The position numbers and the translations under genes are program-made. A stretch of 64,000 nucleotides of DNA. Source: Heterodontus francisci. Taxonomy: Eukaryota. Of the stretch, positions 520 to 42,891 are shown piece by piece. The notes under the pieces are model-generated. The model was given only the letters and a program-made list of their open reading frames with translations. It was not told the origin of the DNA and did no database searches. How positions within the stretch are numbered: position 1 is the stretch's first letter; each line of letters begins with the position of its first letter. The stretch covers positions 27,819,571-27,883,570 of the forward strand of contig NC_090373.1 in assembly GCF_036365525.1 (NCBI RefSeq). The letters are read 5' to 3'.

Positions 520-1449
<930 letters not shown>

Positions 1450-1453
1450 TCAC

Positions 1454-1465: not shown

Positions 1466-1505
1466 CACCTCCTCCCCCAGCCCGGGTGGGGGAGGGGGGG
1501 CGCGC

Positions 1506-5719: not shown

Positions 5720-12620
<6,901 letters not shown>

Positions 12621-14508: not shown

Positions 14509-14782
14509 GAATAAAAACAGAAAAGGCTAGAAATACTCAGTAGGCCTGGCAGCATCTGTGGCGAGAGGAACAGCATTACTGTTTCATCCGAATCTTCTCT
14601 TATGATGTTATCTCCAGTCCAGCTATCTTTACAGGGTGAATCAGCACCCACCAAGCTTGGAAAAGAACTGCCAAACATCTAAAATAAAAGCAAAATACTG
14701 CGGATGCTGGAAATCTGAAACAAAAACAAGAAATGCTGGAATCACTCAGCAGGTCTGGCAGCATCTGTGGAAAGAGAAGCAG

Positions 14783-14819
14783 AGTTAACGTTTCGGGTCA
14801 GTGACCCTTCTTCGGAACT
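14783..14819 (-). ncRNA. Minimal type-I hammerhead ribozyme motif (left arm of Penelope insertion)
   Basis: AGTT-CCGAAGA-A-GGGTC ACT GACCC-GAAAC GTT-AACT: stem I AGTT/AACT, core CCGAAGA (U4C variant of CUGANGA), stem II hairpin, GAAA, palindromic stem III AACGTT. Confidence 0.65.
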
Positions 14820-15198
14820 GACAAATATTAGAAAAGTCACAGATTATAAACAAGTGAGGTGGGGGTTGGGCAAGAGATAACAAAGGAGAAGGTGCAGATT
14901 GGACCAGGCCACATAACTGACCAAAAGGTCACGGAGCAAAGGCAAACAATATGTTAATGGTGTGTTGAAAGACAAAGCATTAGTACAGATTAGGTGTGAA
15001 TATACTGAATATTGAACATCAGCAAGTGCAAACCTGAAGAAGAACAACCTGAAAAAAACAGTGGGTAAGCAAACTGAACAAACTAAGATGAAATGAAATA
15101 AATGCAAAAAAAATTGTAAAAAATGTAAAAAGGAATGCAAAAAAAAGGAAGAAAAAATAACTAAAAATGACTAAAAATGAAAGTAAAGTGGGGGGCTG

Positions 15199-16760
15199 TC
15201 ATGCTCTGAAATTATTGAACTCAATGTTCAGTCCGGCAGGCTGTAGTGTGCCTAATCGGTAGATGAGATGCTGTTCCTCGAGCTTGCGTTGATGTTCACT
15301 GGAACACTGCAGCAATCCCAGGACAGAGATGTGAGCATGAGAGCAGGGGGGAGTGTTGAAATGGCAAGCAACCGGAAGCTCAGGGTCCTGCTTGCGGACT
15401 GAGCGGAGATGTTCCGCAAAGCGGTCACCCAGTCTGCGCTTGGTCTCCCCAATGTAGAGGAGACCACACTGTGAGCAGCGAATACAGTATACTACATTGA
15501 AAGAAGTACAAGTAAATCGCTGCTTCACCTGAAAGGAGTGTTTGGGGCCTGGGATAGTGAGGAGAGAGGAGGTAAATGGGCAGGTATTACACCTCCTGCG
15601 ATTGCAAGGGAAGGTGCCCTGGGACGGGGACGAGGTGGTGGGGGTAATGGAGGAGTGGACCAGGGTGTCACGGAGGGAACGATCCCTTCGGAATGCTGAC
15701 AGGGGAAGGGAGGGGAAGATGCGACTGGTAGTGGCATCACGCTGGAGGTGGCGAAAATGGCGGAGGATGATCCTTTGGATATGGAGGCTGGTGGGATGAA
15801 AAGTGAGGACAAGGGGAACCCTGTCACGGTTCTGGGAGGGAGGGGAAGGGGTGAGGGTAGAGGTGCGGGGAATGGGTCGGACACGGTTGAGGGCCCTGTC
15901 AACCACAGTGGGGGGAAATCCTCGGTTGAGGAAAAAGGAGGTCATATCAGAAGCACCGTCATGGAAGGTAGCATCATCAGAGCAGATGCGTCGGAGACGG
16001 AGAAACTGGGAGAATGGAATGGAGTCCTTACAGGAGGTAGGGTGTGAAGAAGTGTAGTCGAGGTAGCTGTGGGAGTCAGTGGGCTTATAATGGATATTGG
16101 TAGACAACCTATCCCCAGAGATGGAGACAGAGAAGTCGAGGAAGGGAAGGGAAGTGTCAGAGATGGACCATGTAAAGGTGAGAGAAGGGTGGAAATTGGA
16201 AGCAAAGTTGATAAAGTTTTCTAGTTCGGGGCGGGAGCAGGAAACGGCACCGATACAGTCATCAATGTACCGGAAAAAGAGTTGGGGGAGGGGGCCTGAG
16301 TAGGACTGGAACAAAGAATGCTCGACATATCCCACAAAAAGACAGGCATAACTAGGACCCATGCGGGTACCCATAGCGACACCTTTTACTTGAAGGAAAT
16401 GCATGGAGTTGAAGGAGAAGTTGTTCAATGTGAGAACAAGTTCAGCCAGGCGGAGGAGGGTGTTGGTGGATGGGAACTGGTTGGGCCTCTGTTCCAGGAA
16501 GAAGCGGAGAGCCCTCAAACCATCCTGGTGGGGGATGGAGGTGTAGAGCGATTGGACGTCCATAGTGAAGAGGAGGCGGTTGGGACCAGGAAACTGGAAA
16601 TTGTCAAAATGACGTAGGGCGTCAGAAGAGTCACGGATGTAGGTGGGAAGAGACTGGACCAGCGGAGAAAAGATAGAGTCTAGATAGGAAGAAATAAGTT
16701 CAGTTGGGCAGGAGCAAGCTGACACAATGGGTCTGCCGGGACAGTCCCGTTTGTGGATTT
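15199..16760 (-). CDS. Penelope-like reverse transcriptase + Cys-rich linker + GIY-YIG endonuclease (5'-truncated, uninterrupted frame)
   Basis: Motifs IHKRDCPGRPIVS, DVQSLYTSIP, GVAMGTRMGPSYA, RYIDD (RT catalytic), FLD, CNRRRCNTC (Neptune-type linker), VVYCIRCSQCGLLYIGET (GIY-YIG), RFAEH, LEEQHLI, GLN. No stops over about 520 codons. Confidence 0.92.
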
Positions 16761-16764
16761 GTGG

Positions 16765-17396
16765 ACCGTGACAGGGTTCCCCTTGTCCTCACTTTTCATC
16801 CCACCAGCCTCCATATCCAAAGGATCATCCTCCGCCATTTTCGCCACCTCCAGCGTGATGCCACTACCAGTCGCATCTTCCCCTCCCTTCCCCTGTCAGC
16901 ATTCCGAAGGGATCGTTCCCTCCGTGACACCCTGGTCCACTCCTCCATTACCCCCACCACCTCGTCCCCGTCCCAGGGCACCTTCCCTTGCAATCGCAGG
17001 AGGTGTAATACCTGCCCATTTACCTCCTCTCTCCTCACTATCCCAGGCCCCAAACACTCCTTTCAGGTGAAGCAGCGATTTACTTGTACTTCTTTCAATG
17101 TAGTATACTGTATTCGCTGCTCACAGTGTGGTCTCCTCTACATTGGGGAGACCAAGCGCAGACTGGGTGACCGCTTTGCGGAACATCTCCGCTCAGTCCG
17201 CAAGCAGGACCCTGAGCTTCCGGTTGCTTGCCATTTCAACACTCCCCCCTGCTCTCATGCTCACATCTCTGTCCTGGGATTGCTGCAGTGTTCCAGTGAA
17301 CATCAACGCAAGCTCGAGGAACAGCATCTCATCTACCGATTAGGCACACTACAGCCTGCCGGACTGAACATTGAGTTCAATAATTTCAGAGCATGA
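16765..17396 (+). mobile_element. Inverted duplicate of the Penelope ORF C-terminus (GIY-YIG part)
   Basis: Translation from RDRVPLVLTFHP to FNNFRA* is identical to the end of the minus-strand ORF. Confidence 0.9.
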
Positions 17397-17776
17397 CAGC
17401 CCCCCACTTTACTTTCATTTTTAGTCATTTTTAGTTATTTTTTCTTCCTTTTTTTTGCATTCCTTTTTACATTTTTTACAATCTTTTTTTGCATTTATTT
17501 CATTTCATCTTAGTTTGTTCAGTTTGCTTACCCACTGTTTTTTTCAGGTTGTTCTTCTTCAGGTTTGCACTTGCTGATGTTCAATATTCAGTATATTCAC
17601 ACCTAATCTGTACTAATGCTTTGTCTTTCAACACACCATTAACATATTGTTTGCCTTTGCTCCGTGACCTTTTGGTCAGTTATGTGGCCTGGTCCAATCT
17701 GCACCTTCTCCTTTGTTATCTCTTGCCCAACCCCCACCTCACTTGTTTATAATCTGTGACTTTTCTAATATTTGTC

Positions 17777-17813
17777 AGTTCCGAAGAAGGGTCACTGACC
17801 CGAAACGTTAACT
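17777..17813 (+). ncRNA. Minimal type-I hammerhead ribozyme motif (right arm of Penelope insertion)
   Basis: Same sequence as 14783-14819, on the FAM89A sense strand. Confidence 0.65.
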
Positions 17814-20784
17814 CTGCTTCTCTTTCCACAGATGCTGCCAGACCTGCTGAGTGATTCCAGCATTTCTTGTTTTTGTGCCAAACATCTAACTTGGTTCTTA
17901 ACCTTGTAATTTATGTACTCAGTAGTGCTAGATTTTTTTTAAAGATTTTACTTTTGTCCATACAATTAATTTTAAGCTAAATTTCAGCCAGTGTTTCCAC
18001 TTTGGGGAGAGTGTAAAAATGTCCAGTTGGCATTGACCAATGCCAAGATGTTTGTATCTGCAGATGCAGACTAAGGTTGTTCCTTGTTTCCCCTTCCCTC
18101 CACCTCCCCAAAAGCGATATTGTCTGATGTCATTGGGCCCTTCTCCACTCATTCCCACTGTCTGAGTGACATAGCAATAAGGATGGAGTGCTGGTCCCTG
18201 CTGCCTTTTCGACTCTTCATCCAGTGCATTTCTCACAGCACAAAGTTGGCTTCCTCAGGCTGTGAGCCAAAGTGTGACGTAACATGTAGAATAATATGGA
18301 GTAGTATGCCCTTGGCAAACAATAGACCTGTTTGCCCAGGAATTTACCTGTGGTAATGACATTGTCACCACATTTATGTTTAGGATTTCCACTGCACGTC
18401 CACCTCACTTCAAAGGATGCTTTAAATGTCAAATTTTTGTCTTGCAAGTTCCTCCACAGCCTCGTCGCACCTTTTCTCTGCGATCTATTCCATTCCTTTT
18501 GATGTCTTTCTCCCGAATCTCTGACTCCAAATTTCATGGCACAGCCTGGAGCTGCTTCAGTCCTACTATCTGGAGCTACCCCCGCCCCCTCCCCCCTCCT
18601 ATATTGCATCTATAGTGTGTAAGTCTTTGGGCTATCTATTCACTGAGATTGGATGCAAGAATGGTGCCATATAAAAAGATAAAAACTTTTTGGAAGCATA
18701 AGGTGTTCTTTATTTTTGTATTACATAAAGAAAAGCTGTATTAATTGTAATTAAATAAGTCTGATCGTTACCAGTGCTCTGTATGTTCGCTTGCTGTGAA
18801 GTAAAACACCAAGTGTTTTCTCGGTCAGCTTTTGAAACAATTGAAAAGGCAAGTGTAGACGTGTGGGAGACATGTGTGAAAGACATGAATATCCAATTCA
18901 GATCACTGGGGGTATTAATGTTAAATCCCTAGGTTAGCCCACCCTGAACATGTGACTGTCTTATGGGAGTGATTAGCACCACTATAACCCAGGAGAATAT
19001 CTAAGATTAAGTTTGTAACCTTTTATTTCTTATTGAACAGAGGTGTTTCCTTGGTTACCCTTCAGTCCTCTGACTGCTTATATATCCAAGGAAGATTGAT
19101 AAATTATGATCAGAGCCTCTTTGAATGACTTCCCTCTCAGCCTAGGGTGCCTGTCGACAGAGCCTCACAATGTGTCCATCTTGAGTTCTACTAACTTATT
19201 TTTAGAACCAGCACTTTCTACAATTGCCTGCACCAATTGTTTCATATCCTCCTTTAGTAGACCTATGTTTCAAGTTGCACCATCGTTTGTAAAATCTGAT
19301 GCTAAGTTTTTAAGACTGTACCATACCTTCATTCTAAAATACCCTTAACTATTTTCACTTGTACACACCTCGTGTCGAAGCTGTTATTATTTCCTTTCGT
19401 ATTCTTTACTCGCCTTTTCTTAGGTATTCCCTTTTAGCCCTTCTAATCTCTCCACCTCCCCTCTAGTTTTTTTTATATTACTCATAATTTTCTTTTTGTA
19501 TTCCTGGTCCTAGTTTTATCATTTTCCCTTAAGTTTTAATTTTAAACTTTCTTTATCCACAGCCTGTAGAAATAAAACTCTTTTCTCCAGCCATCTCTCA
19601 TTTAAAGACTCCCCCATGTTGATTTTGCTGTCTTGTTTAACTTTTCTACTCAGTTAATTTGGCAAGATAAAACTATAAGTTGCATTCATATGGTGCCTTC
19701 AGTTTAGAAAAATGCCCCAAGTTACTTCACAGGCCATGAAAAAACCTGATGCTGAGCAAAGGAGGATAGGTTATGTGGGGTGACCAAAAGCTTGGTTGTG
19801 GACTTCAATTTTAAGGAGGAAAATGAGGTGGAGTCAGTTTGCGAAGGAATTCCAGGGAGTTGGTCCCAGCCAGCAGATGGCCCCTTGGGAAAAGATTGGG
19901 AGATGCACAGGAATCTGGAGTCAAGGGCAGAGTTCTAGTTTGGGGTGATTGTAGGGCTGAAAGAAGTTGGAGAGAAGGAGCGGTATGGTGAAGATCTCTT
20001 ATCTTATTGAACTTTGCCCATTTTCTTGTCCATCCTACATGTCTTTGACTCTTTGATATCCATTTCTATTTTTACATTGAGTCTAACTATATGTTGTTGC
20101 TATTTCTAAATTGGGCTCCATATGCACTAGCCAGTAGGCTGGTATGCCTACTTTGAATGGATGACTGTGGAATCAAACCCTCTTGACTGCAGGAGAATAT
20201 AGAAGCTGAAAAATGAGTGGGATCTTTTGCACTGATATGGCAAATCCCCAGACTGGATCCAGGAAATTCTCCTTGTCCAGCTATGCTCCCTCTGATGGGG
20301 GTAGGGCCATGTTTGGAGTGGATGGAGGTTCCAACCCCAAATAAGGAACTGTAGAAACTGATGAGAAAGCCAAGGATGCAGTCTCATTCTTGGCCCTTCC
20401 TTTATGCTCCTTGGCAAGAGTGTGCTGGAACAGCCATGAATTTTCAGCCTCTGTGTATTTTAGAAAGTGATGATTCTCTTATTTAGATTAGTAATGCTGT
20501 TGACCAATAGTCCAGATCCACCTTAACTATGTTATAGTATAGTTTTCCACCAATGGATGCACCTCTCAGGTTTAGTTTCCCTTCACTTAAAATTGAAACT
20601 ATGCCTCGATTAGATATAAATTTCTTGTGGACAAATCACACGTGCATACATTTACTGTGAATTTTAATTCCCTTTTAGCTTGTGTGGAATTTTAGTGGTC
20701 GTGATACACTAATGGATACAAGTGCAAGTCATTGTGATGCTGGTTTAAAAATTTTGCCTTTTATTTTCTTCCCAAAAACTAAAG

Positions 20785-21069
20785 GTTGGTCTGCGCCAGT
20801 TGGATATGTCATTACTATGTCAGCTGTGGTCTCTCTATGAATCCATTCAGGAATATAAAGGAACATGCCAGGACTTGTCAGCTGCAGCTAATTCTGATTG
20901 CTCCTATGCATTGGAAAACGGATACTTCGATGAAGAGGAGGAATATTTCCAGGAACAAAGCATTGTGGAAAATGGGAAGGCTGACAACTTGGAGACAAAT
21001 CTTGCAGTGCCTAAAACTCTCAATTCCCGAGACCAGTGGATGCAGGATTCCTTTCATATCACTATATAG
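20785..21069 (+). CDS. FAM89A: FAM89A coding exon 2 (94 aa + stop)
   Basis: Acceptor AAAG|GTT at 20784/20785; VGLRQLDMSLLCQLWSLYESIQEYKG...ALENGYFDEEEEYFQEQ...TAG joins exon 1 in frame to give 180 aa. Confidence 0.92.
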   Translation, partial: VGLRQLDMSLLCQLWSLYESIQEYKGTCQDLSAAANSDCSYALENGYFDEEEEYFQEQSIVENGKADNLETNLAVPKTLNSRDQWMQDSFHITI

Positions 21070-23490
21070 CAGATGTTCTACAGCTTTGACCTTCACACTG
21101 TTTCTGACATTGTACTGTTGTAGATTTTGAAACTGATTAGAGTGAGGGTCAATATTGTTTGTTTGGGGAGAAATGTGGTGGGTTGGGTGGAAAGAGAGAC
21201 AGTAAAGTTTTCATATTTCATTAAGCTAATTTACTTATAAGCTGTCATTAGTAGCATAAACACCATACATTGAAGAATCCTTTGACAAGCTTGGTACATA
21301 AAATGCCTTTTTTGGAAAGAGTAAGTTGGGTTTTTTTTTTGAGCCAGGTACACTCTTTTTGCAGACTCCACAGTAGGTATTTGAAATTTCTATAGGACTG
21401 GGTCATGCCCACTCTTTCTAGATGCTGAAAATAGCATTTTGTTGGGTCATGCTACCTGGTATACTGAGCAATCAAAGTGACAAAGGCGGATTGGTCATCA
21501 AGCTGGTGAACAAATGAGAATTCTGTCGGCGTCATCAATGTAAAACACTGTGACTACTGTGTTAAGGGCTGAGGACTTTTTAAAGTAATTTTATAAAATT
21601 GGCTTCAGTAAACTGAATGTAACCAACTTTTTTTTCTCCTATTTACAATTCCAATTGTGGGATGAGCAAAATTGCAGTGAAGGATAAAACTGATTCTTCT
21701 AATAGTCATATTGCACCAGAGTGAAAGACCAACCCCTGCCACGAGAGTGCTTTGTGCTGACTATAAGATGCCATGGGTGAGAGTTTGATGCAAGTCTGCA
21801 TGCCGGACAAGTCCAATGCTCTCTGTTTTGAAGAGCTGTCCAGCAGTCTGGACTAGAATAAACTGGAAAAAGTTTTAAGCCATTGTGAATATATAATTAG
21901 TGTATTTAGCTAGACAAATGAAGTAAAAGCATCTTTGAGTGTTATTAAATTGAGAATTTCATATTAATGACATTGGTAGCTCTGGTCTGTTTTGCTCCAC
22001 ATTAAATCCAGGAAAGTTGATTTTACATTACCTGGTCTAATGATCCAAAATGCAAATGGTGTGCAGGCTAGGAGCTAGTCTGGGTGGTGTACATCTCCTG
22101 TAGAAATGTTCCTGGGAATTGGTAAATATAGTTTGGAGTGCTATATCAGTACCACTCATTACACAAAAAATTAACCAATTGAAAACATTATCTCAGCTAC
22201 CAGCAAATAATTCAAAGATGGTTGGATTGACCCTGAGGTAATTATAAGATAAATATAGGAGTATGATTTGAATTTATTAACATAACAGCAATATTTTACT
22301 GCAGAATAAATTGCATCAATGTTGAGCCTCTTTAGTGTGTTAAGTGGGAGAGAACCAAATCCCATCACCTAAATGTAGCATACTTGAATTGTTAGCAGGA
22401 ACTAATCTCCACAGTCATATGTAGCATTCATTATAAATATTATTTATTTTTATAAACCTCTATTGCTGAGGTACTGTGGGTTTTCAAAGTAAAATGATCC
22501 ACAATTAAAACATAGCAGGCATATCTGAGCTTCATTGAGGAGATCGATAGCTTTTATAATCTCAGAATTAAATTGGTTTTGTTATACATGGAAGATAAAT
22601 CTGCAGCAAGCACTTTCAAAATAGAGTGCATTTTCTTATCTGTATAGAACTCTACAATGAGAGTGCATTTGCTTGAATTCTTCCGTGGTTTGCTAATCGC
22701 TTTGTAATTGCTGATTTTTGTATCTGCAGTTTGCAGTGTTGAACTGTCAATACAGCTGTGTTTTTTGAACATTATTTCTAATTTATAAAAGTTTGGTGTG
22801 GAATTCTAAATGAACACTTGTATTTAAATGTTTTGGTCACTTTTTATAAGGGGATAGAAATACAGTTTAAGATCTTTTTGCACAGGCCTTTTTCTGGTTT
22901 TGGACCTACATTTCAAGCTCTGTAGTTGTCCTGTATGAGGTGTTCAGACTGGGTATTGGTGCAGCACCCCAGCAGGAGTAACTGGGATTTTGGAGCATTG
23001 CAGGGAAGTTTAACATCACTTGATAACAACTGATCATTAGAACGTGTTAAAAGGCTATTATGCTTGTGTACTGCATCTTGGTCTAGCCTCCTGCCCAATC
23101 AGTTGGTTGATTTAGATAGTTCATGGCATAATCTTATAACTTTAAGCTATAAAATAAATTATATTTGTTATCTAATCAAAAGACTGCAAAATCAACAAGT
23201 CTTCCAATTTGCTATACTGAAAAATGTATCCAGAGAAAGCAGTTTCTTTTTTAGCAGCTGGGATGTTCAATATAACAAATATACTTTTTGTCTTTTTGCA
23301 CCTGTATATTCCAAATGTTAGCTCTTAAAACATTAGCTCCCATTGCTGCAGTTATGGGTTACTTGTGAGACACTGATCTGCATGCCGTGTAAGGTGCTCC
23401 ATTTTGTAATGGCTCAAAGATACCTGGGAAGGAGGAACCTTTTATATTACTACATCTGTTATTGAAGAAATAAAGTACTTTTAGATGCCC
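21070..23490 (+). other. FAM89A: Probable FAM89A 3' UTR with AATAAA at 23469-23474
   Basis: AT-rich stretch with no recognisable repeats after the stop, ending in AATAAA followed by T-rich sequence; transposons resume at 23599. Confidence 0.5.
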
Positions 23491-23598
23491 AGCTTGAAAG
23501 TTGTATACACAAACTTTTAAATGCATTTCATTTATTATTTTTTAAAGTTTTGGTGTGAATTTTATTTTCTAAAAATCCTTATTTTTTAGTGTGCAACG

Positions 23599-23891
23599 TA
23601 AAGGCCTGCTTGGGTTTGTAAAGAAAAACCGACCCGAGTCCGACAGAACCACATCCGACCTGGCCCGAGTCCTTCCATTTTTTCCCACGCCCACCCCGAC
23701 CATCAGTTAACTTACCTTTCATTTTTGACTTTGTTGATGATCTGCAGAAGCTTAAAATAACTGTAACGAAACCACCTTTCTAGTACAAAAATTAAATTAA
23801 CATTGGAGCCATTTACCTGTGATAGTGTGTCTGACCCGACCCGACCCAAACCCAACACGTCGTCTGGTTCGGGTCGGGTAGCAGGCCTTTA
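23599..23891. mobile_element. hAT-superfamily non-autonomous DNA transposon (MITE), 293 bp
   Basis: Perfect 12-bp TIR TAAAGGCCTGCT...AGCAGGCCTTTA; 8-bp TSD GTGCAACG/GTGCAGCG (1 mismatch); repeated subterminal CCCGAC/GTCGGG motifs. Confidence 0.85.
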
Positions 23892-28319: not shown

Positions 28320-28650
28320 TTTTTAATGTTTGTGCTTGGAGCCAGTGCTGTTCATTCTACAGTCAATTGACACTGTCTCTGTACTAATGCTTTGTCTTTC
28401 ACCACACCATTAACATACCATTTGCCTTTGCTCCATGACATTCTGGTCAGTTATTCTCTGTGACCTTTTCCTATCAACACCTCTTTTGTTATCTCTTGCC
28501 CCAACCCCGCTTTACTTGCTTAAAACCTTTTACATTTCTCATATTTGTCAGTTCTGATGAAGGGTCACTGACCTGAAACGTTAACTCTGCTTCTCTCTCC
28601 ACAGATGCTGCCAGACCTGCTGAGTATTTCCAGCATTTCTTGTTTTTATT
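28320..28650 (+). mobile_element. Older Penelope 3' UTR fragment, tail-less
   Basis: Homologous to 17600-17875; ends at CCAGCATTTCTTGTTTTT. Confidence 0.8.
28550..28586 (+). ncRNA. Hammerhead ribozyme motif with canonical CUGAUGA core
   Basis: AGTT-CTGATGA-A-GGGTC ACT GACCT-GAAAC GTT-AACT. Confidence 0.7.
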
Positions 28651-31244: not shown

Positions 31245-33650
31245 TTTTTTATTCATTCATGGGATGTGGGCATCGCTGGCAAAGCCAGCTTTTATTGCCC
31301 ATCCCTAATTGCCCTTGAGAAGGTGGTGGTGAGCTGCCTTCTTGAACCTTTGCAGTCCGTGTGGGGTAGGTACACCCACAGTGCTGTTAGGAAGGGAGTT
31401 CCAGGATTTTGACCCAACATCTGTGAGGGAATGGTGATATAGTTCCAAGTCAGGAGGGTGTGTGGTTTGAAGGGGAACTTTCAGGTGATGGTGTTCCACA
31501 CATGCTGCCCTTGTCCTTCAAGGTGGTAGAGGTCATGGGTTTGGAAGGTGCTGTCGAAGGAGCCTTGGTGCATTGCTGCAGTGCATCTTGTAGATGGTAC
31601 ACACTGCTGCCACTGTGCATCAGTGGTGGAGGGAATGAATGTTGTGAGATGGGGTTCCAATCAAGCGAGCTGCTTTGTCCTGGATGGTGTCGAGCTTCTT
31701 GAGTGTTGTTGGAGCTGCACCCATCCAGGCAAGTGGAGAGTATTCCATCACACTCCTGACGTGCCTTGTAGATGGTGGACAGGCTTTGGGGAGTCAGGAG
31801 GTGAGTTACTCGCGGCAGGATTCCTAGCCTCTGACCTGCTCTTGTAGCCATGGTATTTATATGGCTACTCCAGTTCAGTTTCTGGTCAATGGTAGCCCCT
31901 AGGATGTTAATAGCGGGGGTTTCAGCGATGGTAATGCCATTGAATGTCAAGGGGAGATGGTTAGATTCTCTCTTGTTGGAGATGGTTATTGCCTGGCACT
32001 TGTGTGGCACGAATGTTACTTGCCACTTATCAGCCCAAGCAGGGTTGTTGTCCAGGTCTTGCTGCATTTCTACATGGACTGCTTCAGTATCTGAAGAGTC
32101 ACGAATGGTACTGAACATTGTGCAATCACCAACAAACATCCCCACTTCTGACCTTATGATTGAAGGAAGGTCATTGATGAAGCAGCTGAAGATGATTGGG
32201 CCTAGGACACTACCCTGAGGAATTCCTGCAGTGATGTCCTGGAGCTCAGATGATTGTCCTCCAATGACCACAACCATCTTCCTTCACATTAGGTATGACT
32301 TCAATCAGTGGCGTTTTTTCCCCCTGATTCCCATTGAGTCCAGTTTTGCTAGGGCTCCTTGATACCATACTCGGTCAAATGCTGTTTTGATGTCAAAGGC
32401 AGTCAATTTCACCTCACCTCTGAAATTTTGTTCTTTTGTCAATGTTTGAACCAAGGCTGTAATGAGGTCAGGAGCTGAGTGGCCCTGGCGGAACCCAAAC
32501 TGAGCGTCACTAAGCAGGTTATTGCTAAGCAAGTGCCGCTTGATGGCACTGTCGACAACACCTTCCATCACTTTACTGATGATTGAGAGTAGACTGATGG
32601 GGCGGTAATTGGCCGGGTTGGACTTGTCCTGCTTTTTGTGCACATGACATACCTGGGCAATTTTCCACATTGCAGGGTAGATGCCAGTGTTGTAGCTGCA
32701 CTGGAACAGCTTGGTTAGGGAAAATCCTGGAGTACTATTGCTGGAATATTGTCAGGGCCCACAGCCTTTGCAGTATCAGTGCCTTCAGTCGTTTCTTGAT
32801 ATCATTATTGAGGATGGGGATATTTGTGGAGCCACCTCCTGCTGTTAGTTGTTTAATTGTCCACCACCATTCACGACTGGAGTCGGCAGGTCTGCAGAGC
32901 TTAGATCTGATCCATTGGTTATGGGATTGCTTAGCTCTGTCTATCGCCTGCTTCTGACACTGTTTGGCATGCAGATAGTCCTCTGTTGTAGCTTCACCAG
33001 GTGACACCTCGTTTTGAGGTATGCCTGGTGCTGCTCCTGGCATGCCCTCCTGCACTCTTCATTGAACCAGGGTTGGTCTCCTGGCTTGATGGTAATGGTA
33101 GAGTGGGGGATATGCCAGGCCATGAGGTTACATATTGTGATTGAGTACAATTCTGCTGCTGATGGCCCACAGCGCCTCATAGATGCCCAGTTTTGCATTG
33201 CTAGATCTGTTCGAAATCTATCCCATTTAGCACAGTGGTACTGCCAGACAACATGATGGAGGGTATCCTCAATGTGAAGGCAGGACTTCGTCTCCACAAG
33301 GACGGTGTGGTGGTCACTTCTACCAATACTGTCATGGACAGACGCATCTGCGACAGGCAGATTGGTGAGGATGAGGTCAAGTATGTTTTTCCCTCTTGTT
33401 GGTTCCCTCACCACCTGCCACAGACCCAGTCTAGCAGCTATATCCTTTAGAACTCTGCCAGCTCAGTCAGCAGTGGTGCTACCGAGCCACCCTTGATGAT
33501 GGACATTGAAGTCCCCCATCCAGAGTACATTCTGCACCCTTGCCACCCTCAATGCTTCCTCCAAGTGCTGTTCAACGTGGCGGAGTACTGACTCATCAGC
33601 TGAGGGGGAGGGGGGAGGTGGTAGATGGTAATCAGCAGGAGGTTTCCTTG
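31245..33650 (-). mobile_element. CR1-like LINE (second family) with APE endonuclease and RT remnants
   Basis: WMGDFNVHH and SDHHTV (APE); NYRPISLLSIISKVME, QFGFRQGHSAPDL and [10 protein letters not shown] (RT); poly(A)-ended 3' tail near 31245. Confidence 0.85.
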
Positions 33651-33654
33651 CCCA

Positions 33655-36600
33655 TATACTACACAACAGTGGCCTGCAAGTATACAGAAGCTGTAAGATA
33701 TTCATCACACCCAAAAGCAGGACAAAGAATTTACTTGTATACGTCAATACTGCACACAGGAATGGCCTCAACAATGTCTTTGTGGTAAGATCATGAAAAC
33801 TTGCTACAAATTCAGAAAACACCTCACAATCATCGATGATTTGCTGGTGTATAATGACAGACTAGTCATTCCGAGTTCAGTCACATTGGATATCTTGGAA
33901 CGTCTACATCAGGGTCACATGGCATAACGAACTGCAGAGCACGGGCTCGGTCATCAATGTGGTGGCCAGGAATATCCAAATACATAGAAAACATAGTCCT
34001 GAACTGCCAAGTGGGTTCAATACATAGACTGGAGCAGAGAGAACATCTGATTACAACAAAATTCCCAACCAGACCGTGGGAATGGCTACGGATGGATTTA
34101 TTCATGTACAACGGAAAATCCTAAATAATCGGGATCAATTATTTCTCATGATGGATTGAAGTGAAGTGGTTGTATTCAACAGCAACAGAATCTGTTACCC
34201 TGAACTGTGCAGGAGATCTTTGCGACACATGGTATCCCTGATGAAGTCCTGTCAGACAATGGACCACAGTTGGCAAATTAATACTTCACACAATAAAAGG
34301 AGGAGTGGGGCTGATTCAAGACCAGAAAGGGGATTTACAAATGGAGACAGAGGGCATAGCTGAGATATTAAATGAATACTTTGCACCTGCCTTTACCAAG
34401 AAAGAATATGCAACCCAGGCAATGGTGAAAGAGGAGGGGGTCAGACACTAGAGGGGTTTAAAATTGATAAAGAGAAAGTATTAGATAGGCTGTCTGTACT
34501 TAAAGTGGATAAAGCACCAGCGCTGGATGAGATGTATCCAAGGATACTGAGGGAAGTGAGGGTGAAAATCGCAGAGGCACTGGCCATAATTTTTCAGTCT
34601 TCCTTAGAATTAGGGGTGGTGTCAGAGGGCTGGAGAATTGCAAATGTTACACCCTTAGAGTCGTAGAGTTATGCAGTACAGAAATAGGCCCTTTGGCCCA
34701 TTGTGTCTGTGCCAGCCATCAAAAAAGGGTGTAAAGATAAGCCCAGCAACGACAGGCCAGTCAGTTTAACTTTGGGGGTGGGAAAACGTCTAGAAAAAAT
34801 AATTTGGGACAATACCAATAGTTGCATGGACAAATGCGAGTTGATTAAGGAAAGCCAACATGGATTTCTTAAGGGAAAATCATGTTTAACTAACTTTCTG
34901 GAGTGTTTTGAGGAGGTAACAGATGGTTGATGAGGGAAATGCTGTTGATGTGGTGTACATACACTTTCAAAAGGCGTTTGATACAATGCCACACAACAGA
35001 CTTGTGAGCAAACTTGTAACTCATGGAATAAAAGGGACGATAGCAACATGGATACGAAATTGGCTGAGTGACAGGAAACAAAGAGTAAGTGGTTAATGGA
35101 TGTTTTTCGGGCTGGAGGAATGTTTGTAGTGGAGATCCCCAGGGATTAGTGTTGGGAACCTTGCTTTTCCTGATATATATTAATGACCTAGACTAGGGCA
35201 CAATTTCAAAGTTTGCAGATGATAGGAAACTTGGAAGCATTGTGAACTGTGAGGAGGATAATGTCGAACTTCAAAAGGACATAGACAAGTTAGTTGAATG
35301 GGCAGACAGGTGGCAGATGAAGTTCAATGCAGAGAAATGTGAGGTGATTCATTTTGGTAGGAAGAACATGGAGAGACAATATAGAATAAAGGGCACAATT
35401 CTAAAGGGGTGCAAGAGCAGAGGAATCTAGGTGTATATGTGCATAAGTCATTAAAGGTGGCAGGACAAGTTGACAAAGCAGTTAATAAAGCATACAATAT
35501 TCTGGGCTTTATTAATAGGGGCATAGAGTACAAGAGCAAGGAAGTTAAGTTGAACTTGTATAAGACACTAGTCCGGACTCAGCTGGAGTATTGCATCCTG
35601 TTCTAGGCACCGCACTTGAGGAAAGATGTGAGGGCATTGGAGAGAGTACAGAAAAGATTCACGAGAATGGTTCCAGGGATGAGGAATTTCAGTTATGAAG
35701 ATAGATTGGAGAGGTTAGGACTGTCTTCCTTGGAAAAGAAGAGGCTGAGAGGTGATTTGATAGAGGTATTCAAAATCATGAGGGGTCTGGACAGAGTAGA
35801 TAGAGAGAAACTGTTCCCACTCGTGAAAGGATCGAGAACGAGAGGGCACAGATTTAAAGTATTTGGTAAGAGAAGCAAAAGTGACATGAGGAAAAACTTT
35901 TTCATACAGCGAATGGTTAAGTTCTGGAATGCACTGCCTGAGAATGTGGTGCAGACAGGTTCAATTGAAGCATTCAAAAGGGAATTCGACAGTTATATGA
36001 AAAGGAAGAATGTGCAGGGTTATGGGGAGAAGGCAGGGGAGTGGAACTGAGGGAATTGCTCTTTCAGAGAGACAGTGCTGAGACGATGGGCCGAATGGCC
36101 TCCTTCTGCACTGTAACGATTCTGTGACTTTTCAAGAAGATGGGGATTTGAGCATTTCACGAGTTCACCACGATATCGTCAGTCAAACAGCAAAGCCGAA
36201 AGAGGAGTAGGAACCATAAATGCATTGTTGAAGAAGAACGAAGATCTTGCAACCGCATTGATTAATTATCGATCTACTTTGTTGTTGTGTGGACTATCAC
36301 TTTCTGAGCTGTTAATGGGGAGGAAGATAAAAATCCAACTTCCCATTTTGCCTAGAAAACTACTTCCGGGGCTAAACGTCAAACACTACCGTAAAGTCTG
36401 AGAGAGAGAAGTACAACAGGAACCAACAAACGTACAATTACAACAAAGGATTTCATGCTAGAAACTTACCTCAGCTAAAGAAAGGTGAGAAGGTATGGAT
36501 ACAAGACCTAGAATGGGAAGGTGTTGTCATCCAAAAGGATGACAATTATCAAAGATCGTATCTAGTATGCACGGCAGAGAGTACTATACAATGAAATAGG

Positions 36601-37117
36601 AGAAACATTATCCCTATTCCGTAGAAACAACAATCAATCATTTATCTGGACGAACCCCAGATGATAGTCAAGAAATCCAGAGACAACAGGATACTACAAA
36701 CATTGGTCAAAGCCATCCAAGTCGTCCAAAAAGACTTTGAAGCAAGACTACTGATATTCAGACTCCAATAAGAATATGATCAGGGAGAATTGTGAAGCCT
36801 CCTGATAGGCTGAATCTGTGATGGTCAGAGACTTGGGGGGAGATGGGGTAGTATGTAAAGTTAAAATGAATGAATGTATATATGTCAAAAATAGATAGGG
36901 ACAAAGACTTGGGAGGAGATGTAGTATAAGGGCCTGAAAGGATTAATGTTTGAGGCAGTGAGAGTAAAACCCTCCCACTGTTGTGATGACGAGGTAATAG
37001 GCACTTGGGTATTAGACTTGCTGGCTAGGTCGGCTTGTGGAGAGTGTAAATAGTTATATGCAGCCCTATAAAGACTCCCAAGACTTTCATAGACAACACT
37101 CGATCTGTGCTACAACA
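33655..37117 (+). mobile_element. Gypsy-type LTR retrotransposon remnant (integrase + PPT + 3' LTR), split by a CR1
   Basis: Integrase-like pieces LHQGH.GI...RARARSSMWWPG, RPWE, HGIPDEVLSDNGPQ | WGFEHFTSSPRY.QSN.KAER.V.TI; purine tract GGGAGGAGA followed by TGTAGT (about 36920) running to ...CTACAACA. Confidence 0.75.
34290..36128 (+). mobile_element. CR1 LINE nested in the Gypsy integrase
   Basis: DKPSNDRPVSLT, SQHGFLKGKSCLTNFLE, WADRWQMKFNAEKC, LERVQKRFTRM; 3' tail GGGCCGAATGGCCTCCTTCTGCACTGTAACGATTCTGTGA. Confidence 0.88.
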
Positions 37118-37859
37118 ACATACTTCTCTGCCTCTCTACCTCCTTTAAGGCTCCTTAAAACCTTCCTCTCTGGCCAAGATTTTGGTTATCTGACCTAATA
37201 TCTGGTTTTGTGACTCAGTGTCATACTTAGTTTTATAATGCTCCTGTAAAGCACCTTGGGATGTTTTATTTCGTGAAAGGTGCTATATAAATAAAAGTTG
37301 TTGTTGAAACATGGCAGCCAATTTGTGCACAGCAAAGTCCCACAAACAGCAATGATAAGGCTAGACAGATGGTTTGAAGGAAAGTGGGATTATGGAGACA
37401 GGTCGAGAGAGAATGGAGAGAATCGAATGGCTGGTTTATGTGTTACAAATTTCGATGACATTTCCAGTATATGCTTATCCAGGATTATTCTGCAAACCAT
37501 GGAAAAAAAAGCTCCAAGATAAACAGATTTAAAAAAACAAGGGGAAACTGAAGGTGCTAAAGAGACTCACTGAAAGGAAAGTAAGTGAAATTAGTGTTAA
37601 AACAATCCTCGATGTGGTATTGTAGAGAACAAATTGAATCGCTTGTTGGTGAATTTGTTTGGGATTCTTCACAACAGCTAGTCTTGTTCATTGTTGCTGG
37701 TTTTTATAAAATTTCAGATCCTTTGAGGATTTAAAAAAAATACAGAAATTTGAAAGGAGCTTGAGCCAGATGGGAGGGATCTGAAATGCAAGCAGTGCAT
37801 TGGAGCTGGGCTGCAATGTTTGCACAGTTGCTGCAAACAGCCATATGATGGGGGTAGTC

Positions 37860-37975
37860 ACACTCTCAGCCAACTAACGTCAAAGTCTCATGAGATGTGG
37901 AGCTTGTGGGAAGGAGCTGCTGTGCATTTGTTTTGATCGGATCGGCTGGTTCTGCTTTATCTTCCCCCTTCGGCG
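37860..37975 (+). promoter_or_regulatory. Candidate PSEN2 promoter / non-coding first exon
   Basis: Repeat-free, mildly CpG-enriched segment with TAACGTCA (CRE-like), palindromic TCTCATGAGA and a donor-like GCG|GTATGT at 37975/37976. An upstream non-coding exon is implied because the ATG exon begins with an acceptor. Confidence 0.3.
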
Positions 37976-38554
37976 GTATGTCTGGCTGTCGCTGATAGAT
38001 ACTTCTGAACATCACAAACCTTCGGTTCCCTTTGGACCAGGCAAGTTACAAAAGGGGAGAGGGTTGGAATGAGGCCTCTGTGCCTGTCGCTGACACTTTA
38101 GTCGAGCTTTGATTTTATTGAGCACTCAGTTCCTGGTCTGCGGAGTGAGGCTGAGCAGTGCCCAGGAACTAGAGCAGCTTGTGCGGCAGGGCCAGAGGCT
38201 GCAGCAGGGAAGCCTTGTGTTATATAACCCAGGATTTACCCAGGGAAACTACCAGCTATGGGTCCTCATTCTGCGACACTCTGATACTCTGCTGCTTTCA
38301 TAGAATGAATACAACATATATATTTAACAGGCTGTTATTTTGAGCATTCATCAAATGATTCAGATAACCATACAACGATGCCTCTTTAATAGTAAATGAT
38401 TAGCAGGTTGGAGGTTAGACTTTCAATGAGGGCTGTAATTATCTTTTTAAAAATAACATTATCTGCACAACAGGCCCCTGAGAGTGAGGTGGGGGTGGTG
38501 GAATCAAATATATATTGCAGGGGCGTCGTTACTGTGACAGACTAGTTTTTTTCT

Positions 38555-38810
38555 GGGTGCCAACCCTTCCAGGATTGCCCTGGAGTGTGCAGGAAGTAAA
38601 GATTAATCTCCCGGATACATTCCTGTGAGCAAAACAAACCCAGAAGAAAAATCGTATGGGTGTTCTTAAAAAAAATTCTTTTACATTGGTTGTAAAAATA
38701 TTGGAGATGGGGGAACAAAAGCAGTTTCACTGACTGTCAAACACCAACTCAGGAGTGGAAGGTCATGTGGTGAAACCTCCAGGAATATGTCCAAGCAGAG
38801 TTGCCAACCC
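38555..38810. mobile_element. Old non-autonomous DNA-transposon-like element
   Basis: Degenerate ends GGGTGCCAAC...GTTGCCAACCC; related copies at 58703-59393 (interrupted by a SINE) and 54992-55033. Confidence 0.5.
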
Positions 38811-40323
38811 CTTTAGGCTAGTTTCAGGAATCCGCTGTTCCAAGATCCCTGCCCTGCGAATCAATCTGTGCTTCAGCACAAGCTCACACTGTGTGTTTAA
38901 ACTGGAGAGGAGCAAGCTGAGGTGTCACCTTATCATAATGGGCATAGACTAGATAAACATCAACATGTTTAACAGTCACTGATTTGGATACCTGGAGAGA
39001 CTGGAAAAGCTGGGGTTGTTCTCCTGAGAGCAGAGAAGGTTAAGGGGAGCTTTTAATGCAGGTGTTCAAAATCACAGAGGTTTTGAGAGAGTAAATAAGG
39101 AGAAAATCTTTTCACTGGCTGGAAAGTTGTTAACCAGAGGACACAGGTTTAAGATAATTGGCAAAAGAACCGGGAGCAGGGGAGGGGTGGGGGTGCAGTG
39201 GGGTTTGGGGGAGTCAAGGAGAATGTTTTTATGCAGTGAGTTGTTATGATCTGGAATGCACTGCCTGAAAGGGTGATGGAAGTAAATTCAATAGTAACAT
39301 TCAAGAGAATTCAATAAATACTTGAAAAGGAAAAAAACTTGGAGGACTGTGGGGAAAGAACAGGGGAGTGAGACTAATTGGATAGCTCTTTCAAAGAGCC
39401 GACACAGGCATGATGGGCTGAATGGCCTCCTTCTGTACTGTAAGATGCTATGATTCCACAACAAAAGGGAATAGCCTGAAACTCAGAGGAGCCAGGGTGT
39501 AAAGATGGAACCACTTTACACAGAGCGTGGTGAATGTGCGGACAGGAATGTAAGTGAGTCAGTGCTGGATGATTGCAGCAGCAAATTCAAGAGAGTTGGA
39601 TAAGCACCCAGAGCAACGTTTGGTAGAGGTATCTCTGTGCTGTCAGACTGCTTGTCCCACATCCATTCATGGATAAACAGTAATGTCCCCCCAGATAAAC
39701 GTTGGGAAGATCATCATCTTTGGGCCCCAGTCAGAGACTCTGTATTTAGATCACTCACTTCATTACCCCTTTCTGGGGACTGTTTAAACTCCAACCAGAC
39801 TATTCACAGTATCGGTGTCCTGTTCAACTCCAAACTGAAATTCTGACCACATGACCTCCCAATTAACGAGACTGGCGACTTCCATCTCCTTAACACTGTG
39901 GTTACAATACTGTCAGTGGCCCCTTGCGGTTACGCTGCTGATGCTGGCTCCCCGCGGTTATGTTCCTAATGCTGGCTCCTCCCAGTTACATCACTGACGC
40001 TGGCTGCTCCTGGGCCCCTCACAGTTACAGTACTGGCTCCCTGTGGTCACAGTACCGATTCCGGCTCGCCATTGCTACATTACTAAATCCAAAGCTTTAC
40101 TGGTATATTACTAAAAACAAGTCCTTCAGAATGACTTGGGGTGCAACACGGTCGATGGTGGGAAGGGAGTGTACCATGGTCAATGGGGTGTACCAGCTGC
40201 TGGAGGTAACATTTGACAGCTGCAGTGTTCTCCACCCATTCACAAACATTGCCTCTGTGTTTTTCACAGTTGCCCAGATAGTGTCTGTGAGATTATCCAC
40301 TCGTGCTCATAGAAAGCTCGTTC

Positions 40324-40455
40324 ATGATTTCATCAGACAGTGAAGAAGAACTGTACACTGAGAGGACGGCTCTGATGTCAGCCAATGCCTCTGCCACGTC
40401 CTCTTACCAGGATAGGGATGGGGCGCCTGGCTCCACCAACGTACAGACTAACCGG
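40324..40455 (+). CDS. PSEN2: Presenilin-2 coding exon 1
   Basis: Acceptor CACAG at 40269, upstream in-frame TAG, then MISSDSEEELYTERTALMSA... (PSEN2-type N-terminus SDSEEE..ERT.LMSA); donor CGG|GTAAGC. Confidence 0.85.
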
Positions 40456-40733
40456 GTAAGCACACCAACAGGTCAGGGTGAGCCACCCACTGTGGAGCTG
40501 TTGCAAGTATTTGTGCAAGTTAAGGTCTGAAAGCAGGTGGGTGCGTAACATAGAATGACTTACATCATAGAATTACATACATAACAAAATTATATCCATT
40601 ACATAGAATTACAGACATTACATAGAACTTACAACACAGAAACAGGCCATTCGGCCCAACTGGTCCATGCCCGTGTACATTCTCCACACAAGCCTCCTTC
40701 CACACCCTCTTCATCTCACCCTAACAGCATAAC

Positions 40734-41261
40734 TGTCGAAGATATTTTAATAACTCATACGGAGACTTCGAGATTCGTTACTAGGAGTTTATTTGCGTAA
40801 TATCACGGAGAGCCCGTACAGTCCGCACTGTAAGCAGCACTCTCTCGAACAGTGAAGAGTGCTTACATTTATACACCAAACTAAACAACTTTGCGCTATC
40901 AGTTCACATTCCATGACATTTAGCATCCCAGACCCCATCAATTGTCCTTGAGTCTTCCTTTCATCCTTATCAAGCTTGCATTCCTGAGTGCTTCGTGCAA
41001 TCTGCAGTTACATCAAAGCAGCTGTCGTATACTCTGATAAGAGGGGCCCTACATTCCTTATCAACAGGAATTGACAGCATACATTTCACAAGAGCCCATT
41101 GTTCCAAACCACAAAGTGTTACATGATTATACCACAAAGGAACAGATGTCCTTATAATTACAGGAATCACAGGCGTCAGCTAGTCTACTTTAACTATTTC
41201 ATACCCACTTAGCAAGCATAATGCTTTTGCTTATTTCCCATGATTATTATTTTCTTCCACA
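40734..41261 (-). mobile_element. Solo LTR (528 bp) inserted in a CR1 3' fragment
   Basis: TG...CA ends with short inverted repeats (TGTCGAAGA/TCTTCCACA); 5-bp TSD ATAAC (40729-40733, 41262-41266); TATAAA near 40870 and AATAAA near 40790 on the minus strand. Confidence 0.8.
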
Positions 41262-41761
41262 ATAACCTTCTATTCCTTTCTCTGTCATGTATTTATATAG
41301 CTTTCCCTTAAATGTATTCACCACAACTCCTCCCTGTGGTAGCAAGTTCCACATTCTAACCATTCTCTGGGTGATGAGGTTTCTCCTGAATTTCCTATTG
41401 GATTTAGTAGTGACTATCTTATATTTATGGCCTCTAGTTTTGGATTCCCCACAAGTGAAAATATTTTCTATACATCTACCCTATCGAACCCCTTTGTAAT
41501 TTTAAAGACCTCTATTAGGTCACCCCTCAGCCCTCTCTTTTCTAGAGAAAAGAGTCCCAGTCTGTTTAGTCTTTCTTGATAAGCATAACCTCTCAGTTCT
41601 GGTATTCTCATAAATCTTTTTTGCACCTCCCTCAGTGCCTCTAAAGCCTTTTGTAATATGGAGACTAGAACTGTGCCTGTACTCCAGGTGTGGTCTAAGC
41701 AACATTCTATACAAGTTTTACAAAACTATTACTATCATCCTGTGTTGTTTTGCCTGCACAG

Positions 41762-42000
41762 CGCCGATTGGCAGCCAGTCGTCCCGCAGATCCTTTGGAG
41801 AGGAGTGAAGGTGCAGAGGGCGGGCCTGCGAGCAGAGATGCAGTCGGAGAGGGCGAGGAGGAGGAGGAGGAGGAGGAGCTGATTCTGAAGTATGGGGCGA
41901 AGCATGTCATCATGCTCTTTGTGCCCGTCACGCTGTGTATGGCGGTGGTGGTGGTGACGATCAAGTCAGTCAGCTTCTACACGGAGAAGGACGGGCAGCT
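41762..42000 (+). CDS. PSEN2: Presenilin-2 coding exon 2
   Basis: CAG acceptor; ...[47 protein letters not shown]; phase-2 donor GTAAGT. Confidence 0.93.
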
Positions 42001-42653
42001 GTAAGTGTCCCACAAAGCGCCAACTCGGGATTTGAATATTTAAGGATCTCTCTGGCAAACTTTGCACATGTTCATTGTATTTACAGCCCAGAAACAGGCC
42101 ACTCGGCCCAACTGGTCCATGCTGGTGCTTAGCGCCACACAAGCCTCCTCACACCCTCTTCATTTAACCCTATCAGCATATTCTTCTATTCCTTTCTCCC
42201 TCATGTTTATCTAGGTTCCCTTAACATAACATAGAAAATACAGCACAGAACAGGCCCTTCGGCCCACGATGTTGTGCCGATCCTTTGTCCTCTGTCAAGG
42301 ACAATTTAATCTATACCCCATCATTCTCCTTTATCCATATACCTATCTATTCTATTATACTTCAACCACTCCTTGTGGTAGTGAGTTCCATCTTCTCACC
42401 ACTCTCTCAGTAAGGAAGTTTATCCTGAATTATATATTGGATTTATTAGTGACTAAATTGTATTTCTGGCTCTGAGTTTTAGACTCCCCCCAACAAGTGG
42501 AAACATTTCCTTTACATCTACCCTATCAAACCCCTTCATTATCTTTAAAACCTCTATCAGGTCACCCCTCAGACTTGTCTAGATAAAAGACCCCCAGCCT
42601 ATTCAGTCATTCCTGATAGGTCTAACCTCTTAGTCCTGGTACCCTACTTGTAA

Positions 42654-42891
42654 TAAATTAAAAGCAAAATACTGCGGATGCTGGAAATCTGAAACAAAAA
42701 CAAGAAATGCTGGATTCACTCAGCAGGTCTGGCAGCATCTGTGGAAAGAGAAGCAGAGTTAACGTTTCGGGTCAGTGACCCTTCTTCGGAACAGTTCCGA
42801 AGAAGGGTCACTGACCCGAAACGTTAACTCTGCTTCTCTTTCCACAGATGCTGCCAGACCTGCTGAGTGAATCCAGCATTTCTTGTTTTTG
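42654..42891. mobile_element. 238-bp palindromic non-coding Penelope derivative (two inverted hammerhead-bearing 3' ends)
   Basis: Perfect 98-bp arms 42695-42792 and 42794-42891 around one central A; about 40-nt tail on the left only; TSD TACCCTACTTGTAA at 42640-42653 and 42892-42905. Confidence 0.9.

What the first reader, a model, noticed from the sequence alone, without database searches (positions are those of the whole stretch)
14683..42891. Two independent insertions share identical asymmetric termini, and each has arm-coupled variants
Seen: both insertions have the tail (...AAAAGCAAAATACTGCGGATGCTGGAAATCTGAAA) on one end and stop at the same nucleotide (...CATTTCTTGTTTTTG) on the other; the older copy ending near 28650 stops at essentially the same place. 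One variant separates the insertions but is shared by both arms of each: GGAATCAC/GTGATTCC in the large one, GGATTCAC/GTGAATCC in the small one. Inference: both arms derive from one template lineage in a single event, with two defined priming or processing sites about 38 nt apart. The motif TTCCAGCAT occurs once before each end and could mark those sites.
Basis: partly seen in the sequence, partly recalled or inferred. Interest (0 to 1): 0.7.

Follow-up and report, generated by a model that had tools for sequence, protein, structure and literature searches.

The report
Twin-primed Penelope retroelement, one-sided tail
These are two dead, head-to-head insertions of a very abundant Penelope-like jumping gene whose one-sided 36-38-base tail is already described; genome counts show almost every two-armed copy has one tailed and one untailed end, which likely means both cut DNA ends start copying the same RNA at two fixed sites.

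Summary
Both insertions are head-to-head 5'-truncated arms of a Neptune-type PLE (over 56,000 young arms in this 6-Gb genome), each inside a 14-bp target duplication. In genome samples the 3' ends fall into two windows about 36 nt apart, with none between. 59 of 60 two-armed insertions have one long and one short end, while single arms split 52:44. Arms share the diagnostic variant in 31 of 36 pairs (0.34 expected) but not private mutations (6 shared, 79 not), so gene conversion is not the cause. The untailed arm is often the longer one, so it is not a fold-back copy. Both nicks fit one symmetric target preference. Best model (inferred): twin priming, in which a probably dimeric protein nicks both strands and primes both ends at the two internal start sites of one RNA. 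A third fixed site, with an extra G, suggests a capped RNA start. Known architecture; modest, testable mechanistic gain.

The parts
14669..14682 (.). Target-site duplication, left copy, large insertion (TGCCAAACATCTAA)
14683..14720 (-). 38-nt tail (unit 3248-3285) of the large insertion; the next 4 nt fit both template and TSD
14683..16760 (-). Tailed arm: 5'-truncated PLE copy, unit positions about 1206-3285
14783..14819 (-). Minimal type I hammerhead motif in the pLTR (core CCGAAGA variant)
   Evidence: read from sequence against the min-HHR description in PMC4209133; no Rfam hit
15199..16760 (-). 5'-truncated RT + CX4CX2C linker + GIY-YIG reading frame, open to its stop, without a start
16761..16764 (.). 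4-nt filler GTGG at the head-to-head junction, also present just inside the left arm
16765..17875 (+). Untailed arm: unit 2136-3247, matching the other arm at 1111 of 1112 bases
17777..17813 (+). Minimal hammerhead motif; its first base is the family's 5' pile-up position (unit 3149)
17876..17889 (.). Target-site duplication, right copy, large insertion
28346..28650 (+). Older single-arm copy ending in the short-end window; canonical CTGATGA hammerhead core at 28550-28586
42640..42653 (.). Target-site duplication, left copy, small insertion (TACCCTACTTGTAA; a preceding G is shared too)
42654..42658 (-). 5 untemplated or slipped bases at the tailed end
42659..42792 (-). Tailed arm of the small insertion, unit 3150-3283 (tail 42659-42694, 36 nt)
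42793..42891 (+). Untailed arm of the small insertion, unit 3149-3247
42892..42905 (.). Target-site duplication, right copy, small insertion

Best explanation
Both insertions are head-to-head copies of a Penelope-like retrotransposon, likely made by twin priming, in which the element's protein, predicted to be a dimer, would nick both DNA strands 14 bases apart and extend both 3' ends on usually one RNA, one from each of two internal start sites about 36 bases apart. Shown from sequence: element identity; two end windows; one of each end per two-armed insertion; 14-bp TSD; symmetric target preference; shared source variants; untailed arm often the longer. Inferred: the nicks leave 3' overhangs; 1-4 nt of primer-template pairing picks the exact base; the short-site RT runs ahead and the tail-site RT trails; both cDNAs stop at the RNA's 5' end or earlier and are joined by end-joining. 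If only one end primes productively, a single arm with either end results. The roughly 100-140-nt arms likely copy an RNA whose capped start lies at the hammerhead's 5' edge.
For: One tail plus one short end in 61 of 62 pairs; 59 of 60 after dropping 2 segmental duplicates, p about 5e-17 against 0.5. Single arms: 52 tailed, 44 short, 1 unclear of 97. Second set: 21 of 24 pairs one of each, 2 with an eroded short end, 1 short/short, 0 tail/tail. TSD 14 bp in 22 of 53 pairs and 13-16 bp in 41. A half-site matrix learned only on single arms fits both sides of 22 two-armed 14-bp sites (2.05 and 1.79 vs background -1.68; p 4e-10 and 2e-10); the unprimed side of single arms fits less well (0.22, n=14, p=0.02). 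Types agree in 31 of 36 pairs. Common variants: 102 shared, 20 not; private variants: 6 shared, 79 not. Arm lengths are coupled: both short 35, both long 14, mixed 6 of 55 (p 7e-8). The short arm reaches further in 18 pairs, the tailed arm in 7. Three tailed arms stop at 3243-3263, at the short site. L300, L306 and L294 show two cDNA passes stopping at the same 5' base. Primer-template microhomology in 29 of 42 short ends and 22 of 42 long ends. PMC11167929: an anole PLE nicks and extends both strands and starts RT at two internal sites bounding the tail. N-terminal homodimer model: score 0.48, best control 0.21, contact agreement at least 44%, pLDDT at least 61; the mark was reached by 17 of 29 eukaryotic paired proteins (animals 7 of 16; only 1 of 7 without an older solved relative) and 0 of 30 single chains.
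Against: 5 of 36 pairs are discordant at the diagnostic site, and 10 of 57 differ at one or more common sites. In L173 and L230 linked sites differ, which points to two templates or two different pLTRs of one tandem source. Two RNAs from one source locus would also share variants; genomic copies cannot exclude this. Trimming of a hairpin intermediate could couple arm lengths. PMC11167929 saw no difference in start site between strands, so one-of-each use per event has not been shown biochemically. Only 3 of 30 upstream pLTRs of read-through copies begin at the 5' pile-up, so a single capped RNA class does not explain long and tandem copies. The samples come mostly from the first 33 Mb of one contig and from young, exactly matching copies. 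The dimer score may be from memory and shows likeness only.
Confidence: 0.65

Rival explanations
1. Twin priming on two RNA molecules held asymmetrically by one complex and usually coming from one source locus.
For: Explains the discordant pairs L173, L230, L070/L072 and L071. min-HHRs are thought to act as dimers or in tandem (PMC4209133). Shared source variants fit equally well.
Against: Needs a separate rule to give one of each end in 59 of 60 pairs. Does not explain random 5' stops that coincide within 60 nt in 6 of 14 long pairs (1.4 expected, p 0.001), or tailed arms stopping at the short site.
Confidence: 0.17
2. Both cDNAs start at the long site, and the endonuclease later trims one by cutting the element's own DNA ('EN-mediated resolution', proposed in PMC8557442).
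For: The element has CCAGC 14 nt before the short end, resembling the target half-site followed by 14 nt. The D. virilis EN recognises the tail region (as reported in PMC11167929).
Against: Short ends show microhomology with the target in 29 of 42 cases, as expected of priming. 44 of 97 single arms also have the short end. RT starts at both sites in vitro.
Confidence: 0.1
3. One cDNA folds back and copies itself (self-priming, as argued in PMC3846280), giving the second arm.
For: Explains identical arms. Palindromic junctions at hammerhead stem II occur (8 pair arms start at 3161).
Against: The untailed arm would have to lie inside the tailed arm, yet it extends more than 20 nt further in 18 of 55 pairs, up to about 1.9 kb. 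An untailed cDNA cannot template a tail.
Confidence: 0.05
4. The arms are independent or were homogenised after insertion by gene conversion.
For: Palindromes can convert arm to arm (recalled); 6 private variants are shared.
Against: 79 of 85 private variants are arm-specific. A single TSD frames the whole unit in 53 of 58 pairs.
Confidence: 0.03

Closest known systems
Endonuclease-positive Penelope-like elements: pLTR, adjacent inverted 5'-truncated copy, 30-40-bp tail at one end (PMC8557442 Fig. 2 legend; PMC3846280)
   Same: RT plus C-terminal GIY-YIG ORF, partial tandems, inverted truncated copy, tail at only one end, TSD, hammerhead motif in the pLTR.
   Different: Nothing in architecture. 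Added here: counts showing a near-strict one-of-each rule, a 14-bp TSD mode and a symmetric target preference.
PAc, Poseidon element of Anolis carolinensis (PMC11167929)
   Same: Two internal RT start sites bounding the tail; both strands nicked and extended; predicted N-terminal helix dimer; hammerhead-cleaved RNA is not the main template (1 of 107 arms starts at the cut site).
   Different: PAc starts RT in an AC-rich stem loop inside the ORF and cuts at ATT. Here the ends lie in U-rich degenerate repeats about 40-80 nt upstream of the long ORF's ATG, the protein has the CX4CX2C linker that Poseidon lacks, and the target preference is CCMRRS-like outside each nick.
Neptune clade PLEs (as defined in PMC8557442)
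   Same: [quoted passage not shown]
   Different: Placement by tree was not tested; Nematis shares the linker. No microsatellite targeting was evident in the listed target sites.
L1 twin priming (Ostertag and Kazazian; recalled, not read)
   Same: Both target 3' ends prime on one RNA and give an inversion inside one TSD.
   Different: L1's second primer lands at a variable upstream site and the pieces barely overlap. Here both sites are fixed, about 36 nt apart, and the arms overlap fully as a palindrome.

Membership tests
EN+ Penelope-like element | Single ORF, RT followed by C-terminal GIY-YIG endonuclease | tested here: met
   Open 911-aa ORF in L125; Pfam RVT_1 E 1e-5 and GIY-YIG E 0.002, both below gathering cut-offs; truncated in the window
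EN+ Penelope-like element | DKG motif; two cysteines between GIY and YIG with downstream His; R, E, N catalytic residues | tested here: met
   PADKGG, VVYCIRCSQCGLLYIG, EH, CH, EEQH, GLN read; criteria from PMC8557442
EN+ Penelope-like element | Partial tandems (pLTR), inverted truncated copy, optional 30-40-bp tail, TSD | tested here: met
   1,633 exact read-through junctions genome-wide
EN+ Penelope-like element | Minimal hammerhead motif in the pLTR (bulge between 9 and 10.1, G10.1-C11.1, palindromic 15.2-16.2) | tested here: met
   All three features read from sequence against PMC4209133; young copies carry U4C, the older copy is canonical; Rfam gave no hit
EN+ Penelope-like element | Hammerhead self-cleavage activity | not testable with these tools
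   needs an RNA assay
EN+ Penelope-like element | RT groups with PLE/TERT in a phylogeny | not tested
   No labelled reference set was available; homologs are full-length RT/GIY-YIG proteins, nearly all unnamed
Neptune clade | CX2-5CxxC linker between RT and EN | tested here: met
   CNRRRCNTC
Neptune clade | Separation from Nematis by RT tree | not tested
   Inferred only from a vertebrate host and aquatic-animal homologs
Penelope/Poseidon clade | Absence of the linker Zn-finger motif | tested here: not met
   motif present
DNA transposon or MITE with terminal inverted repeats | Fixed, symmetric TIR ends around a constant internal sequence or transposase | tested here: not met
   Ends are asymmetric, inner junctions vary, and the arms are 3' parts of an RT/EN ORF

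The most novel reading that the evidence does not exclude
The inverted repeats and one-sided tail of Penelope-like elements are both the footprint of programmed twin priming. A dimer reads a two-fold symmetric target, nicks 14 nt apart and loads its two RT sites on one RNA at a fixed 36-nt offset; the quality of the second half-site decides between one and two arms; and the short palindromes are full copies of a capped leader RNA that starts on the first base of the hammerhead.
Probability: 0.45. Interest if true: 0.6.

Novelty: new member of a known kind. Interest (0 to 1): 0.38.

Why it matters
The structure itself is textbook for PLEs. How their inverted and tandem insertions form is still called undefined (PMC8557442), and the only in vitro study read here (PMC11167929) leaves the later steps unvalidated. 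Tens of thousands of young copies give a natural experiment. It excludes fold-back and gene conversion as main routes and makes twin priming testable in the existing assay. If true, these telomerase-related RTs would make both junctions themselves from one RNA, unlike R2 or L1, which would matter for RT evolution and for RNA-templated insertion tools. My searches for 'Penelope' + 'twin priming' and related terms listed no paper stating this model. The library lacks most subscription papers, including the 2005-2006 PLE reviews.

Tried and rejected
Rfam scan of 14600-18000: only two chance CRISPR-repeat matches. MFE folding of the pLTR-tail region was no better than shuffles (z -0.56), so no stable stem marks the sites. 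Public runs were contigs only and not shown to be RNA, so they cannot show an RNA start; no usable splice joint was listed. Splicing at the acceptor-like CAG beside the 5' pile-up: rejected, because no constant upstream exon precedes those starts. Hammerhead-cut RNA as template: 1 of 107 arms starts near the cut. TTCCAGCAT as marker: rejected. A subfamily-specific tail end as the cause of extra A/TA at long ends: 7 of the 10 junction rows read TTTTATTTTAG before the ORF-side sequence (one a duplicate-type or host-joined row), so slippage is likelier; the by-type tally in that call returned nothing. An exact 42-mer from the RT region matched only this copy. A fixed four-position target motif failed on the unprimed side of single arms (2 of 44). 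A genome-wide count of paired arms could not be made; the pair counts come from place lists and fetched loci. Pairs L084 and L195 were parsed with extra pieces, and L084 adds 11 false differences. The supplements of PMC11167929 gave no text hits; its supplementary figures were not visible and may bear on the novelty claim.
Full report
WHAT IS THERE. The window is vertebrate DNA: a RING/B-box exon, LINE relics and minisatellites. It lies in a 6.0-Gb assembly. The best named homolog of the element's protein is from a bamboo shark (71% identity). The large insertion (14683-17875) is a 2.08-kb minus-strand arm and a 1.11-kb plus-strand arm, joined head to head by a 4-nt filler, inside a 14-bp TSD. 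The small one (42654-42891) is a 134-nt and a 99-nt arm inside its own 14-bp TSD. The arms are 3' parts of an RT + GIY-YIG frame. A full-length natural copy has an open 911-aa ORF with the DKG, CX4CX2C and GIY-CxxC-YIG motifs and a 3,289-bp unit. I use that unit's coordinates below. By the criteria in PMC8557442 (passages) this is an EN+ Penelope-like element of Neptune type; no tree was built. The pLTR holds a minimal hammerhead motif at 3149-3185, matched by eye to PMC4209133 (passages).

OBSERVATION. The tail, the shared short end and the arm-coupled variant are as described. Three details fail: the ends are not single bases, the two tailed ends differ, and TTCCAGCAT is absent before the short-end position in the small insertion. 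What the two ends do share is a degenerate repeat, CAGY-ATTT-pyrimidines-R-TTTYAG, read directly from the unit.

FAMILY-WIDE TESTS. One 40-mer has 41,157 exact matches. The three variants count 17,363, 17,109 and 21,762. 29,969 arms of these types run past the short end. Of the first 100 listed arms, 51 end at 3245-3260, 48 at 3281-3296, none between, and 1 is an artefact. Of 178 parsed insertions, 97 are single arms (52 tailed, 44 short, 1 unclear), 62 are head-to-head pairs and 19 are complex or cut by the locus edge. Regions beyond 20 Mb were fetched because they were clustered hits, so the pair-to-single ratio is not a genome estimate. 61 of the 62 pairs have one end of each kind, or 59 of 60 without two segmental duplicates. 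A second set of 92 loci gave 24 pairs: 21 one of each, 2 with an eroded short end, 1 short/short and 0 tail/tail; part of that set was picked for carrying a tail. Spacing between the ends is 28-43 nt, mode 36 (42 pairs). A TSD was found in 53 of 58 pairs: 14 bp in 22 and 13-16 bp in 41.

ARM COUPLING. On 20 Mb of one contig, 31 of 36 pairs share the variant, against 0.34 expected. One discordant pair is a nested separate insertion (L058). Across 8,544 overlap columns, common variants are shared 102 times and unshared 20 times, rare ones 6 and 42, private ones 6 and 79; arms differ at 1.6% against 3.3% for shuffled partners. Arms therefore inherit source variants together and then mutate apart, which excludes ongoing conversion. 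Against strict coupling, 10 of 57 pairs differ at one or more common sites, and L173 and L230 look like two templates. L070 and L072 are both discordant and share an unusual junction, which suggests one composite source.

MECHANISM. Fold-back of the tailed cDNA requires the untailed arm to be the shorter one. It is the longer by more than 20 nt in 18 of 55 pairs and the shorter in 7, so both arms are most likely templated from RNA. Arm lengths are coupled (35 both short, 14 both long, 6 mixed; 6 of 14 long pairs stop within 60 nt of each other, 1.4 expected). Three tailed arms stop at the short site. Some cDNAs pass the same 5' base twice after jumping to sequence 61-446 nt beyond the tail. 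These points favour one RNA, primed internally. A half-site matrix (about CCMRRS) learned only from single arms fits both sides of two-armed targets and fits the unprimed side of single arms less well; a cruder fixed motif failed on that side. An N-terminal homodimer model passed its mark: 0.48, best control 0.21, contact agreement at least 44%, pLDDT at least 61. For calibration, 17 of 29 eukaryotic pairs passed (only 1 of 7 without an older solved relative) and 0 of 30 single chains. The interface is residues 62-106, and the pass may be from memory. The best model is twin priming on usually one RNA (0.65). Rivals: two RNAs (0.17), EN trimming (0.10), fold-back (0.05), conversion (0.03).

A THIRD SITE. 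Of 107 arms picked by an anchor downstream of the hammerhead, 47 begin at 3146-3156, 5 in the preceding 46 nt and 1 at the ribozyme cut. The site reads TCAGTTC, a match to the initiator consensus (recalled). Genome-wide, the base before G3150 is G 2,570 times and C or T 2,334 times, where G would be about a third of non-A bases. An extra G is the mark expected from copying a cap (recalled from L1 work). Some of these G's come from the other arm or the TSD. Against a single RNA class, only 3 of 30 upstream pLTRs of read-through copies begin there. I put a capped start at about 0.55. Both arms of the small insertion stop at this site. D. virilis Penelope also has an internal, initiator-type promoter, but its start lies 46 nt before an intron (PMC2377424, passages) whose end meets the hammerhead (PMC4209133).

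COMPARISON AND NOVELTY. The one-sided 30-40-bp tail and the inverted truncated copy are described in PMC3846280 and PMC8557442 (passages) and in PMC8969392 (passages). PMC11167929 (main text parts 1-2 of 4; supplement text searched without hits) shows that the tail equals the distance between two internal RT start sites and that both strands are nicked and extended. In the text I read it does not derive the inverted structure from this. What this follow-up adds is the one-of-each rule, the exclusion of fold-back and conversion, the symmetric target and the 5' pile-up. Searches listed no paper stating twin priming for PLEs, but the older reviews are not in the library. Earlier notes of this scan describe the same architecture in other genomes; they are unchecked and not evidence.

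VERDICT. A new member of a known kind; interest 0.38. The most novel reading, programmed twin priming by a dimer on one RNA, has probability 0.45 and would deserve 0.6.

Noticed in passing
L306, L300, L287, L298, L294: Direct double copies in which the cDNA reaches the RNA's 5' end, continues from a point 61-149 nt beyond the tail, and sometimes stops at the same 5' base again; fits a jump to the 3' end of the same short RNA, or a circular RNA.
   Followed up: partly
L282-L311: Upstream pLTRs of read-through copies start at scattered positions (3 of 30 at the 5' pile-up). Unit-length tandem arrays occur (L244; C1 about 104.04 Mb), suggesting a multimeric or circular template.
   Followed up: partly
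L070:6515-6771 and L072:4521-5425: Two insertions 30 kb apart with different TSDs share the same odd junction and the same arm discordance.
   Followed up: partly
L061, L090, L239: Both arms start at unit 3161 and overlap by 13 nt, joined through the palindromic hammerhead stem II.
   Followed up: no
long ends, 10 of 42 pairs: Extra A, AT, ATA or ATTTA after the last templated base, suggesting slippage on the U-rich template.
   Followed up: partly
window 17781-17787 vs 28554-28560: Young subfamilies carry a CCGAAGA or CCGATGA hammerhead core, while the older copy has canonical CTGATGA; activity unknown.
   Followed up: no
window 3373-3519, 3766-3923, 14510-14586: Older fragments of the same family: one tailed end, one EN fragment, and one short end about 80 bp from the large insertion.
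   Followed up: partly
window 517-1449 (-): RING / B-box coding exon, TRIM9/TRIM67-like (name recalled; domains).
   Followed up: no
window 6277-12497 and 49440-51378: G-skewed minisatellites, periods about 37 and 34.
   Followed up: no
L184, L185, L186; L191: Locally duplicated host segments carrying the same insertion three times.
   Followed up: no
L156:4821: A near full-length copy that begins exactly at the base after the tail, an acceptor-like TTTTAG junction; single case.
   Followed up: no
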